The notes beneath the pieces are model-generated. The model was not told where the DNA came from, made no database searches, and saw only the letters and a program-made list of their open reading frames with translations. Positions 50,672 through 59,211 of a stretch of DNA of 64,000 nucleotides are shown in pieces (the stretch's first letter is position 1; every line of letters begins with the position of its first letter). Where the stretch lies: the sequence record MZ189262.1. The stretch is one strand, 5' to 3'. Source of the DNA: Escherichia phage W143. A program made the translations under genes and the position numbers.

Positions 50672-51157
50672 TTATTCCATTTCTACTATATGCATGTTCT
50701 TTTTGCTATCAAAATATATGTTTTTAACTATTAACTCAGAATTAATTGGCAGTAAAAACTCTCTTTCATAATCTACCATACAAAGATTATCATAAAGCTT
50801 GTTAAGCTTATCATCGTCAGTTTGGCCAGATTCTTCAATTGCGATTAAATTTTCTAAAATGTCAATCATAGCAGTCGAATAGTCGAAAACGTTTGCATTT
50901 TTTAACACTACTAAAACATTAGTCATATAGCGTTCTGCCGCAAACGTTTCAGCTATATGAGACTCACTGCTAAAGGAAGTTATTCTTTTAAATTTGATTC
51001 TCCTATTAACTTCAAACTTATAAGATAACACTTCCTCTATTGTAAGTCCTCTAAAAAGTGTGTCTTTAATCTCAAGTTTGTCTTTAATGTAATCATTAAC
51101 ACGCTTATGATTAAAATCATTAATTTTGTTGCCAAGGCATTGCATTAAAATATGCAT
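50672..51157 (-). CDS. putative mini ADP-ribosyltransferase-like protein
   Basis: 161-aa ORF; R (LFRGLT), S-x-S (SFSSES) and E-x-E (YEREF) with spacing like ModA/ModB; inference only. Confidence 0.4.
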   Translation of the reverse strand: MHILMQCLGNKINDFNHKRVNDYIKDKLEIKDTLFRGLTIEEVLSYKFEVNRRIKFKRITSFSSESHIAETFAAERYMTNVLVVLKNANVFDYSTAMIDILENLIAIEESGQTDDDKLNKLYDNLCMVDYEREFLLPINSELIVKNIYFDSKKNMHIVEME

Positions 51158-56581: not shown

Positions 56582-56763
56582 AATGAATTTATATAATCAA
56601 TGAGTTCTTGTTCTTTATTATCGAATTCTTTAGAAAGTTCTTCGTACTCGTTTGCACTAAAAGGACCGCATTCATTACAAACTTTTTCCAATTCGCTATT
56701 TTTATCCATAACTTCGTGGATAAGAGAAAAGAGTTTGTCTTTTTGTTCTTTACTCAGACTCAT
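56578..56763 (-). CDS. small acidic protein (tandem duplicate 2)
   Basis: 61-aa ORF (MSLSKEQKDKLFSLIHEV...) paralogous to 56393-56581. Confidence 0.5.
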   Translation of the reverse strand: MSLSKEQKDKLFSLIHEVMDKNSELEKVCNECGPFSANEYEELSKEFDNKEQELIDYINSL

Positions 56764-56929
56764 ATATTAAATCCCAGAAGTTTTAAGATAATTCGCTTTT
56801 GCTTAAATATTTCCATCGTTAAATGATCAATATCTTTTTGACCAATTCCAATAGCAAAACCCTTATTTACGGCAAGTTCAATTAAATTATCAATATTGCG
56901 TAAAACTTCATAACGTAACTCAAAATTAT

Positions 56930-57136
56930 TCATTTTGGTTCACCTTCTTTAACGAAATCCGGATAAGGATTAAATCCAGAATAAAATCCTTCACCTTTAT
57001 GATTGCTACAACCCTTGTTCGAGCAATAGCACCAATAATCAAAATCACAAGCCATTTCGTCATTGCATAAAGCAAAAACTACAGGCCATTCGCATTTTTC
57101 ACATTTAGCGCCTAGAAGAATTTTTGTTTGACTCAT
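56930..57136 (-). CDS. Cys-rich zinc-binding protein
   Basis: trimmed to MSQTKILLG; CEKCEW...CYCSNKGC. Confidence 0.45.
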   Translation of the reverse strand: MSQTKILLGAKCEKCEWPVVFALCNDEMACDFDYWCYCSNKGCSNHKGEGFYSGFNPYPDFVKEGEPK

Positions 57137-57360
57137 AACCACGTTACCTGCATACAATATTCTTCAACATGCTTTTTACGACCTTTCTTATCGATAAAGG
57201 TGTATTCCATAAAGCGACCAAGATATCGTCTTTCAACGTTATGAGGAGTATTAATAGGACACTTAGTCTGGCGAATTTCTTCCCATTCACGAATAATGAC
57301 TGCTTTATTCTTTGGGTCATACGGATGTGGATAATGTATATTCATAATAACGGTTCCCAA
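57133..57360 (-). CDS. hypothetical protein
   Basis: 75-aa ORF. Confidence 0.45.
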   Translation of the reverse strand: MGTVIMNIHYPHPYDPKNKAVIIREWEEIRQTKCPINTPHNVERRYLGRFMEYTFIDKKGRKKHVEEYCMQVTWL

Positions 57361-57809
57361 TTAACAATCACAATTTCTAATTTAGAGGAATATGTATCTA
57401 AAATCCCCTCAATAATATCCCAGTTCCCTTTACCTATGCCTGCACCAATCCTAGGCATATAGATTGTAGGTTTAATCAGTTTATTTTCACCAAACTCATT
57501 TAATTCTAACATACAATTCATTAAAGCGGAATACTCAAAATTTGGCCCTGGTTGAAATTGAGTATAAAGATTGAAGCAGTAAGCTTTATGAGTCCTAAAG
57601 TATTTTTCATAGACTGAGTAAAAACCGAGTTTAGTTACATCGCCCCATTCTGTCTGTAATTTATCAGCTTCCAAAATTTTAGGGAAAGCTTTGGTTAATT
57701 GACCCGCTACGCCTGAACCCATAGTATGAAAACAATTGCATCCATGCGCAATATTTTTACCTTCAGCGAAAAGGGCGACAATATCGCCCTTGATATATTT
57801 TACAATCAT
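57342..57809 (-). CDS. macro-domain-like protein (candidate ADP-ribose binding/hydrolase)
   Basis: 155-aa ORF; IKGDIV...HGCNCFHTMGSGVAGQL...PRIGAGIGKG resembles macro-domain motifs. Confidence 0.5.
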   Translation of the reverse strand: MIVKYIKGDIVALFAEGKNIAHGCNCFHTMGSGVAGQLTKAFPKILEADKLQTEWGDVTKLGFYSVYEKYFRTHKAYCFNLYTQFQPGPNFEYSALMNCMLELNEFGENKLIKPTIYMPRIGAGIGKGNWDIIEGILDTYSSKLEIVIVNWEPLL

Positions 57810-58147
57810 CTAGTACTCAATCCTCGATTATAAGAATCTACCAAACGGTCAACCATTGAATGACAAGCGGCTTTATCTTTCTCCTCCGCAACTGAACATT
57901 CTAAGGTATTCCACTTTTTAGCATATCGTTTTAACAATGTATCATTTTTATATCTGCTTGATTTATCTCTTTCTCCGTCTTTATATGCATATATTAATTT
58001 CTGCGCAAATTCAGCTTGGCATGCTTTATTTTTCCCGCAATAATCCGCGGCAGTACGGTTTACATACTCTCTAATTTCAGTATATGATGTATTTGCTAAC
58101 GCAGAAAATGAAATTAATCCTACACATAAAACCAAAATTTTAGTCAT
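57806..58147 (-). CDS. secreted Cys-containing protein (vs position)
   Basis: 113-aa ORF with signal peptide and four Cys. Confidence 0.5.
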   Translation of the reverse strand: MTKILVLCVGLISFSALANTSYTEIREYVNRTAADYCGKNKACQAEFAQKLIYAYKDGERDKSSRYKNDTLLKRYAKKWNTLECSVAEEKDKAACHSMVDRLVDSYNRGLSTR

Positions 58148-58685
58148 TTACTATTTCCAACAGTTTATTATTTTTAAGGTAGTTAGCCTTTTCTAGGACT
58201 TCAGAAGCATATTTAGAACCTGCTTTAACATTCCATCCCGAATTATAAGAGGATATTGCCTTTCTTATATCGCCCTTATGTATATTTAACCAATAAGAAA
58301 GTTCAATGTACGCCCAGGAAGCTGAATTGGACCGTTTATTCAACATTCTTTTTATTTCGGCATCGGTCATATTATAACCAAGTTCCTTAACTCTTGCTCG
58401 CATTGTCGGCAAATAATTTTGGAACATTCCATAGGCATGATGCTTTGGTTTAGATTTTAAATTAACTCCGGCAGAGCTTTCTTGCCATAAAATAGCAGCC
58501 ATTATATGACCTAATCCGCTCTTGTGGATATTTTTGTGTGTTTTATATTTTCCATCCTTAGAAAATTGTTCCCCGAATTGATACGCGTAACGCATGTTAT
58601 CGAGTTGGACATTACTGAAAGTATGCTCGGAGCTATGTGCCATCATAGAAATGGCCAATAGACCAGCGAGTAGTGCTTTTCTCAT
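58140..58685 (-). CDS. periplasmic lytic-transglycosylase-like protein
   Basis: 181-aa ORF with signal peptide; ES...AYGMFQ resembling Slt-family motifs. Confidence 0.5.
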   Translation of the reverse strand: MRKALLAGLLAISMMAHSSEHTFSNVQLDNMRYAYQFGEQFSKDGKYKTHKNIHKSGLGHIMAAILWQESSAGVNLKSKPKHHAYGMFQNYLPTMRARVKELGYNMTDAEIKRMLNKRSNSASWAYIELSYWLNIHKGDIRKAISSYNSGWNVKAGSKYASEVLEKANYLKNNKLLEIVND

Positions 58686-59181: not shown

Positions 59182-59211
59182 ATTATACCATAGTCAAGAG
59201 GAAAAGTAAAC
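59182..59211 (-). promoter_or_regulatory. T4-type early promoter
   Basis: GTTTAC 59211-59206, 18 bp, TATAAT 59187-59182. Confidence 0.7.

What the first reader, a model, noticed from the sequence alone, without database searches (positions are those of the whole stretch)
57342..57809. Macro-domain-like protein downstream of tk
The 155-aa ORF carries GDIV...HGCNC...GSGVAGQL...IGAGIGKG, reminiscent of macro-domain ADP-ribose binding loops. A phage macro domain could bind or reverse ADP-ribosylation, relevant alongside the phage's own ModA/ModB and to host ADP-ribosylating defenses.
Basis: inference. Interest (0 to 1): 0.5.

Follow-up and report, generated by a model that had tools for sequence, protein, structure and literature searches.

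The report
Phage T4 Tk.4/AdfM macrodomain gene

Summary
The 155-aa ORF at 57342-57809 is real and lies on the minus strand. It is 153/155 identical to phage T4 Tk.4. It passes the Pfam Macro threshold, and its AlphaFold2 model (pLDDT 95.7) matches the solved macrodomains TARG1, Poa1p, BT1257 and DarG. T4 RefSeq already annotates tk.4 as a phosphatase with an A1pp motif. A 2025 preprint (HIDEN-SEQ) found tk.4 as the only T4 gene depleted on DarTG2 hosts. A clean knockout became DarTG2-sensitive, and the authors renamed the gene adfM. So both the macro-domain call and the DarT link are supported and already known.

Two points refine the picture. First, this is not a DarG copy. The catalytic Lys of DarG and TARG1 is an invariant Gln84 here, as in Streptomyces SCO6735, a Gln-dependent thymidine-ADP-ribose DNA hydrolase. 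Second, its nearest biochemically characterised relative (34% identity) is phage Adpp, an ADPR-1''-phosphate phosphatase that counters aRES defence. The substrate of Tk.4 (DNA adduct, small molecule, or both) has not been shown biochemically.

The gene lies upstream of tk in transcription, not downstream. No evidence links it to ModA/ModB. Interest is low.

The parts
57342..57809 (-). tk.4 / adfM coding sequence: a 155-aa stand-alone macrodomain protein.
   Evidence: The ORF is listed. It is 153/155 identical to T4 Tk.4. Pfam Macro scores 26 bits against a 22-bit threshold. The AF2 model has pLDDT 95.7, and Foldseek top hits are TARG1, Poa1p, BT1257 and DarG.
57732..57746 (-). Codons for H22-G23-C24-N25-C26, the ribose-proximal loop.
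   Evidence: N25 aligns with DarG N22, PhiKZ AdfM N23 and SCO6735 N27. H22 aligns with SCO6735 H24 and Poa1p H23. These positions are 94-99% conserved in 107 homologues.
57558..57560 (-). Codon CAA for Gln84, at the position of the catalytic Lys of TARG1 (K84) and DarG (K80) and of the essential Gln85 of SCO6735.
   Evidence: Gln84 is invariant in 107/107 homologues. The equivalence comes from hmmalign and hhalign. The codon was read.
57426..57446 (-). Codons for G122-A-G-I-G-K-G128, the diphosphate-binding loop.
   Evidence: G124 is invariant and aligns with DarG G119 and SCO6735 G128.
57806..57809 (-). ATGA overlap between the vs stop codon (TGA) and the tk.4 start codon (ATG). This suggests translational coupling (inferred).
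   Evidence: ORF coordinates and sequence.
57342..57345 (-). ATGA overlap between the tk.4 stop codon and the ATG of the next small gene, the tk.3 homologue (57133-57345).
   Evidence: Sequence. The same 4-nt overlap is annotated in JK38 and T4.
57816..57825 (-). Possible Shine-Dalgarno elements: GAGGA 11 nt and GAG 6 nt before the ATG.
   Evidence: Read. Inferred only.
59182..59210 (-). Sigma-70-like promoter match (TTTACT-17-TATAAT with a TG) upstream of regB. It is a candidate early promoter for the regB-vs.1-vs-tk.4 run.
   Evidence: Consensus scan, 10 of 12 matches. The total number of such matches in the region was not above the shuffle expectation, so this is tentative.

Best explanation
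The ORF encodes the T4-type stand-alone macrodomain Tk.4/AdfM. It is made from the early leftward transcript. It binds the ADP-ribose moiety and hydrolyses the bond at C1'' of the distal ribose. Its biologically relevant substrate is most likely ADP-ribose attached by the host toxin DarT2 to thymidines in single-stranded phage DNA, so it acts as a phage-borne 'orphan antitoxin' against DarTG2. The chemistry is predicted to be of the SCO6735 type: Gln84, held by Asn25, positions the ribose, and a water molecule does the work. It is not the Lys-nucleophile type of DarG and TARG1.

What is shown: identity with T4 Tk.4, the macro fold, the active-site residue pattern, and (from the literature) the T4 knockout phenotype.

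What is inferred: hydrolysis of DNA-linked ADP-ribose by this protein, and the Gln-based mechanism.
For: The protein is 153/155 identical to T4 Tk.4, and the two differences (F63S, N150D) lie outside conserved positions. It sits in the same place as in T4, between vs and tk.3.

The macro fold is supported by Pfam above threshold, an AF2 model with pLDDT 95.7 and pTM 0.91, and Foldseek hits to TARG1 (E 2.5e-10), Poa1p, BT1257 and DarG with TM 0.7-0.8.

For T4, tk.4 was the single significant hit on DarTG2 hosts, and a clean knockout was sensitised.

Gln84 is invariant in 107 homologues. It aligns with DarG K80, TARG1 K84 and SCO6735 Q85 by two profile methods.

SCO6735 cleaves thymidine-linked ADP-ribose on DNA and protects against DarT. 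Its Q85A/E, N27S and G128E mutants lose activity (PMC9411070). The Tk.4 equivalents N25, Q84 and G124 are conserved.

An unrelated phage macrodomain, PhiKZ AdfM, removes DarT2 marks from DNA in vitro (PMC13309987).
Against: No biochemistry exists for Tk.4 itself, and the preprint says only that enzymatic removal 'seems likely'.

The closest biochemically characterised relative is not a DNA hydrolase. It is Adpp, an ADPR-1''-phosphate phosphatase, at 34% identity and E 1e-22. That is far closer than DarG, SCO6735 or PhiKZ AdfM (E 1e-3 to 1e-4; 0.005).

SCO6735's DNA-positioning lysines K34 and K89 are Ser32 and Gly88 here.

The genetic evidence comes from a preprint, and the passages I read describe no complementation and no catalytic-mutant test.
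Confidence: 0.72

Rival explanations
1. Tk.4 is mainly an ADPR-1''-phosphate phosphatase acting on a soluble metabolite, like Adpp or Poa1p. It would detoxify or recycle the product of RES-type NADases (aRES) or of tRNA-repair chemistry, and the DarTG2 phenotype would be secondary.
For: Tk.4 is 34% identical (E 1e-22) to Vibrio phage Gary Adpp, which converts ADPR-1P to ADPR in vitro. The two share the invariant residues H22, N25, D49, N80, Y82, Q84 and G124. Poa1p gives the highest query TM-score (0.80) among PDB hits. T4 RefSeq and PHROG 335 call the protein 'phosphatase'. Iyer et al. argued that phage macrodomains mostly target soluble ADPr derivatives.
Against: The window has no adps or namat partner, whereas Adpp works inside a NARP1 operon. 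The only phenotype reported for T4 tk.4 is DarTG2-specific, and I found no report that DarT2 makes ADPR-1P. T4-type proteins have an 8-residue loop after Gln84, whereas the NARP1-linked homologues I examined have longer loops. The two activities need not exclude each other.
Confidence: 0.15
2. Tk.4 neutralises DarT2 without catalysis, by binding the toxin or shielding ADP-ribosylated DNA.
For: Catalytically dead SCO6735 Q85A still inhibits DarT in vitro, and full-length DarG K80A does so too.
Against: The strict invariance of active-site residues across homologues down to 32% identity argues for catalysis. Tk.4 lacks DarG's C-terminal toxin-binding domain. The DarG macrodomain alone carrying K80A does not inhibit DarT.
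Confidence: 0.06
3. Tk.4 reverses or edits the phage's own Alt/ModA/ModB ADP-ribosylation of host proteins, or ModB RNAylation.
For: ModA and ModB are encoded in the same window, and all are early functions.
Against: No data support it. From my own knowledge of the field, Alt/ModA/ModB make arginine-linked ADP-ribose, and macrodomains of the TARG1/DarG class are known for ester-linked and thymidine-linked substrates. The genes are about 45 kb apart and not co-located.
Confidence: 0.03

Closest known systems
Phage T4 Tk.4 (NP_049723), renamed AdfM in bioRxiv 10.1101/2025.11.20.689424
   Same: It is 153/155 identical, has the same length, occupies the same position between vs and tk.3, and has the same 4-nt start/stop overlaps.
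   Different: There are two substitutions (F63S, N150D). This phage also has two extra small ORFs between tk.2 and tk.3.
Streptomyces coelicolor SCO6735 (PDB 5E3B) and Bacteroides BT1257 (2FG1)
   Same: They share the ALC1-like macro fold. Gln sits at the catalytic position (Q85 / Q82 / Q84), and the His, Asn and Gly equivalents are conserved. SCO6735 hydrolyses thymidine-ADPr on DNA.
   Different: Identity is only about 23-25%. SCO6735 K34 and K89 are not conserved. The loop after the Gln is shorter in Tk.4. Tk.4 has an invariant Asp49 where the others have Tyr.
DarG antitoxin macrodomain (PDB 5M31, 5M3I; NCBIfam NF048014)
   Same: It has the same fold and the same proposed job, undoing DarT2 marks on thymidine.
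   Different: Catalytic Lys80 is replaced by Gln. There is no C-terminal DarT-binding domain and no adjacent darT. The protein scores 28.9 bits against a cut-off of 250.
PhiKZ gp104 'AdfM' (PMC13309987)
   Same: It is a phage stand-alone macrodomain that counters DarTG2. Its de-ADP-ribosylation of DNA has been shown in vitro.
   Different: It belongs to a different clade. It is DarG-like with an FPTK lysine. BLASTP against Tk.4 aligns only 23 residues (E 0.005), and hhalign gives 96% probability. The two proteins share a name but not a subfamily.
Adpp of NARP1-AP (Vibrio phage Gary KNV71_gp137; bioRxiv 10.64898/2026.01.28.702374) and yeast Poa1p (6LFQ)
   Same: Adpp is the nearest characterised sequence relative (34% identity, E 1e-22) and shares the invariant residues, including the HxCNC motif and Gln84. 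Poa1p shares the HxCNC motif but has Ser at the Gln84 position. Poa1p is a top structural match.
   Different: Adpp sits between adps and namat and dephosphorylates ADPR-1P. Tk.4 has no such neighbours and has a shorter loop after the Gln.
Human TARG1/OARD1 (4J5R)
   Same: It is the best Foldseek match, and it also removes thymidine-linked ADPr.
   Different: The catalytic dyad K84/D125 corresponds to Q84/G126 in Tk.4.

Membership tests
Macro domain (Pfam PF01661) | Profile score above the curated gathering threshold. | tested here: met
   26 bits against 22, E 9.3e-6, covering residues 22-132 and profile positions 2-113 of 118.
Macro domain (Pfam PF01661) | Three-layer alpha/beta fold that superposes on solved macrodomains. 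| tested here: met
   AF2 pLDDT 95.7 and pTM 0.91. 146 PDB matches at E<=1e-3, and every natural protein among the 50 matches listed is a macrodomain (the rest are computationally designed hydrolases). TM-scores reach 0.7-0.8 to TARG1, Poa1p and DarG.
Macro domain (Pfam PF01661) | Conserved Asn plus the two Gly-rich ADP-ribose-binding loops. | tested here: met
   N25 is present in 106/107 homologues, G33 in 107/107 and G124 in 107/107.
Macro domain (Pfam PF01661) | Binds ADP-ribose. | not testable with these tools
   Needs ITC, a thermal-shift assay or a co-crystal structure.
T4 Tk.4 / AdfM orthologous group | Near-identity to T4 Tk.4 and conserved position between vs and tk.3. | tested here: met
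   153/155 identical. The gene order matches T4 and JK38.
T4 Tk.4 / AdfM orthologous group | Required for resistance to DarTG2. | not testable with these tools
   Reported for T4 only, in a preprint.
DarG antitoxin (NCBIfam NF048014) | Score at or above the equivalog cut-off. | tested here: not met
   28.9 bits against 250.
DarG antitoxin (NCBIfam NF048014) | Catalytic lysine (K80). | tested here: not met
   Gln84 occupies that column in hmmalign and hhalign.
DarG antitoxin (NCBIfam NF048014) | C-terminal DarT-binding domain and an adjacent darT gene. | tested here: not met
   The protein has 155 aa and matches only profile positions 2-148 of 338. Its neighbours are vs and the tk.3 homologue.
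SCO6735-type Gln-dependent macrodomain hydrolases | Gln at the catalytic position, supported by Asn, with the loop Gly conserved. | tested here: met
   Q84, N25 and G124 align with Q85, N27 and G128. Their functional roles in SCO6735 come from PMC9411070.
SCO6735-type Gln-dependent macrodomain hydrolases | DNA-positioning lysines K34 and K89. | tested here: not met
   The aligned residues are Ser32 and Gly88.
SCO6735-type Gln-dependent macrodomain hydrolases | Hydrolyses thymidine-linked ADP-ribose on ssDNA. | not testable with these tools
   Needs an enzyme assay.
Adpp / Poa1p ADPR-1''-phosphate phosphatases | Significant full-length similarity to a characterised member. | tested here: met
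   34% identity over 140 aa to Gary Adpp, E 1e-22. Poa1p scores E 3e-6 by sequence and TM 0.80 by structure.
Adpp / Poa1p ADPR-1''-phosphate phosphatases | Encoded within a NARP1 operon (adps-adpp-namat). | tested here: not met
   No adps or namat homologue in the 64-kb window. The neighbours are vs and tk.3.
Adpp / Poa1p ADPR-1''-phosphate phosphatases | Residues that were mutated in the deposited Poa1p structures (H23, S30, F152). | tested here: inconclusive
   H22 is conserved, T29 replaces S30, and G126 replaces F152. I did not read what those mutants showed.

The most novel reading that the evidence does not exclude
T4-type Tk.4/AdfM and the NARP1-linked phosphatase Adpp are one sequence family with one invariant Gln-type active site. 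A single chemistry, water attack at C1'' of the distal ribose, may therefore release either thymine-DNA (the DarT2 product) or phosphate (the aRES product). On that reading Tk.4 is a dual-purpose counter-defence enzyme. Alternatively, substrate choice is set by the loop after Gln84, which is 8 residues in the T4 type and 11-15 in others. Either way, the two phage proteins now both called 'AdfM' (T4 and PhiKZ) would be independent recruitments of different macrodomain clades.
Probability: 0.35. Interest if true: 0.5.

Novelty: already known. Interest (0 to 1): 0.15.

Why it matters
As a finding it adds little. The gene is the annotated T4 tk.4, its A1pp/macro motif has long been in RefSeq, and its anti-DarTG2 role was reported in 2025. 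The open question is mechanistic. The protein is not a DarG copy, because it has Gln where DarG has the catalytic Lys. It is closest to an ADPR-1''-phosphate phosphatase that defeats a different defence, aRES. A direct substrate test would show whether one small phage enzyme covers two ADP-ribose-based immune systems. It would also show what determines DNA versus small-molecule specificity in this macrodomain clade.

Tried and rejected
1. I considered whether the protein is a DarG orthologue captured by the phage. I rejected this because the catalytic Lys, the C-terminal domain, the NCBIfam cut-off and darT adjacency all fail.

2. I considered whether it belongs to the same family as PhiKZ AdfM. 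I rejected this at subfamily level, since BLASTP aligns only 23 residues and PhiKZ has the FPTK lysine.

3. I tried net charge and pI as a clue to DNA binding. It was uninformative: PhiKZ AdfM has pI 5.1 and the Mtb DarG macrodomain 6.7, against 6.3 for Tk.4.

4. A small MAFFT alignment of the reference proteins alone misplaced the SCO6735 and BT1257 Gln. I relied on the profile methods and on the published structural equivalence instead.

5. I could not superpose the model on 5E3B or 5M3E residue by residue, because model coordinates are not exposed. The Gln84 equivalence therefore rests on profile alignments.

6. The promoter and terminator scan gave nothing above background, apart from one good -10/-35 match upstream of regB.

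7. The + strand ORF 57169..57462 that overlaps the gene's 3' end was given no weight, because the minus-strand frame accounts for all the homology found.

8. The CmdTAC paper does not test any T4 macrodomain.

Full report
**The observation**

It is a real, widely conserved gene:
- tblastn finds it in 2,753 of 50,697 phage records, with at least 80% coverage in 2,421.
- 183 protein clusters match at E<=1e-5.
- The region is 95-96% identical at DNA level to many Tequatrovirus genomes.
- The protein is 153/155 identical to T4 Tk.4, differing only at F63S and N150D.

The gene order matches T4: regB, vs.1, vs, tk.4, small ORFs, tk, all on the minus strand. The gene is therefore upstream of tk in transcription. 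'Downstream' is true only of + strand coordinates. Its start overlaps the vs stop codon (ATGA), and its stop overlaps the next gene's start (ATGA), which is typical of T4 early gene runs. A good sigma-70-like match lies upstream of regB, but that scan as a whole was not above background.

**What the protein is**

- Pfam Macro is passed: 26 bits against a 22-bit threshold.
- PHROG 335 ('phosphatase') matches at 9e-64.
- PDB sequence matches are BT1257, Poa1p, SCO6735, DarG and TARG1.
- An AlphaFold2 model built on 107 homologues has pLDDT 95.7 and pTM 0.91.
- Foldseek against the PDB returns TARG1, Poa1p, BT1257 and DarG at E 1e-8 to 1e-10 and TM 0.7-0.8.

The macro fold is therefore confirmed, in the TARG1/DarG/ALC1-like class.

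**What is already known**

T4 RefSeq annotates tk.4 as 'phosphatase; contains A1pp phosphatase motif', and several records call the orthologue a macro domain protein. The HIDEN-SEQ preprint (bioRxiv 10.1101/2025.11.20.689424) reports three things:
- tk.4 was the only significant transposon hit when a T4 library infected a DarTG2 host.
- A clean knockout became DarTG2-sensitive.
- The authors renamed the gene adfM.

Enzymatic removal of ADP-ribose from DNA is described there only as likely.

**Mechanism, examined further**

I checked my recalled reference sequences against the PDB and took further ones from PDB alignments. I then aligned them to the family profile.

Gln84 of Tk.4 is invariant in 107/107 homologues. 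It falls in the column of TARG1 K84, DarG K80 and PhiKZ AdfM K78, and of BT1257 Q82 and SCO6735 Q85. hhalign agrees: 98.6% probability to SCO6735 with NLYTQ aligned to NMIGQ, and 98.0% to Taq DarG with NLYTQ aligned to NFPTK.

DarG K80A is inactive (PMC5179494). SCO6735 lacks the Lys and Asp. Its Gln85 is essential, its N27S and G128E mutants lose activity, and it still cleaves thymidine-linked ADP-ribose on DNA and protects against DarT (PMC9411070). Tk.4 conserves the equivalents H22, N25, Q84 and G124, but not the DNA-positioning K34 and K89.

Tk.4 is therefore not a captured DarG. Against the NCBIfam DarG model it scores 28.9 bits where the cut-off is 250. It also lacks the C-terminal domain and has no darT neighbour. 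A Gln-type mechanism like that of SCO6735 is the best-supported prediction.

PhiKZ gp104 is also called AdfM and has been shown to de-ADP-ribosylate DNA (PMC13309987). It belongs to the Lys-type DarG-like clade and is only remotely related to Tk.4.

**A complication**

In Vibrio phages Achelous and Gary and in Acinetobacter phage Liucustia, Tk.4 homologues sit beside genes annotated ribose-phosphate pyrophosphokinase and nicotinamide phosphoribosyltransferase. These are the NARP1 genes adps and namat.

The Gary protein KNV71_gp137 is Adpp. It has been shown to dephosphorylate ADPR-1''-phosphate and so overcome the aRES defence (bioRxiv 10.64898/2026.01.28.702374). Tk.4 is 34% identical to it, at E 1e-22, and shares the family's invariant residues, including Gln84. 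That is much closer than its similarity to any DNA-ADP-ribose hydrolase.

The window has no adps or namat. T4-type proteins also have a shorter loop after Gln84: 8 residues in 72 of 107 homologues and 11 in 28 of 107.

The substrate of Tk.4 has therefore not been established biochemically. DNA-linked ADP-ribose is favoured by the T4 genetics. ADPR-1P is favoured by sequence kinship. Both leaving groups sit on C1'' of the distal ribose, so a dual activity is plausible (inference).

**The ModA/ModB idea**

Both genes are in the window, about 45 kb away. Nothing links them to tk.4. From my own knowledge of the field, their arginine-linked products are not known substrates for this macrodomain class.

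**Verdict**

Novelty: already known. Interest is low. The remaining open points are the substrate and the Gln-based mechanism.

Noticed in passing
window 50672-51157 (-): A 161-aa ORF is 30% identical to T4 ModB (E 4e-12), making it a third Mod-like ADP-ribosyltransferase paralogue besides ModA and ModB. It has no Pfam hit. Only 43 phage records carry it at 90% identity or more, and it is 100% identical in Salmonella phage F13076, where it is annotated 'RNA polymerase ADP-ribosylase'.
   Followed up: partly
window 56760-57157 (-): Two small ORFs (56760-56933 and 56930-57157) lie between the tk.2 and tk.3 homologues and are absent from T4 at this spot. They are present in JK38. The second is a Cys-rich Phage_zn_bind domain protein (PF23895, E 1.5e-28).
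   Followed up: partly
L004 2632-5638; L005 401-3974; L006 1629-4659: Tk.4 homologues lie within NARP1 NAD+-reconstitution operons (adps-adpp-namat) in Vibrio Thalassavirus phages and in Acinetobacter phage Liucustia, next to RNA ligase genes. The Gary copy is the published ADPR-1P phosphatase Adpp.
   Followed up: yes
window 58140-58685 (-): The vs.1 homologue has an N-terminal hydrophobic leader and a weak SLT lytic-transglycosylase match (23.4 bits against 21.3). Several GenBank records, such as JK38, label it and other neighbours 'endoribonuclease RegB', which looks like annotation spill-over.
   Followed up: no
window 57771-57791 (+): A terminator-like hairpin (8-bp stem, 5 GC pairs, then a T-rich tail) lies on the strand antisense to the 5' end of tk.4. 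It may be a chance match. The region had 8 such sites where about 2.5 were expected.
   Followed up: no
literature: T2 tk.4 and T4 vs: A 2026 preprint reports the T2 tk.4 mRNA among the RIL-seq partners of the host sRNA ArcZ and describes the gene as a 'putative thymidine kinase', which is a mislabel for a macrodomain. HIDEN-SEQ also found the neighbouring vs gene to be the most depleted in minimal medium.
   Followed up: no
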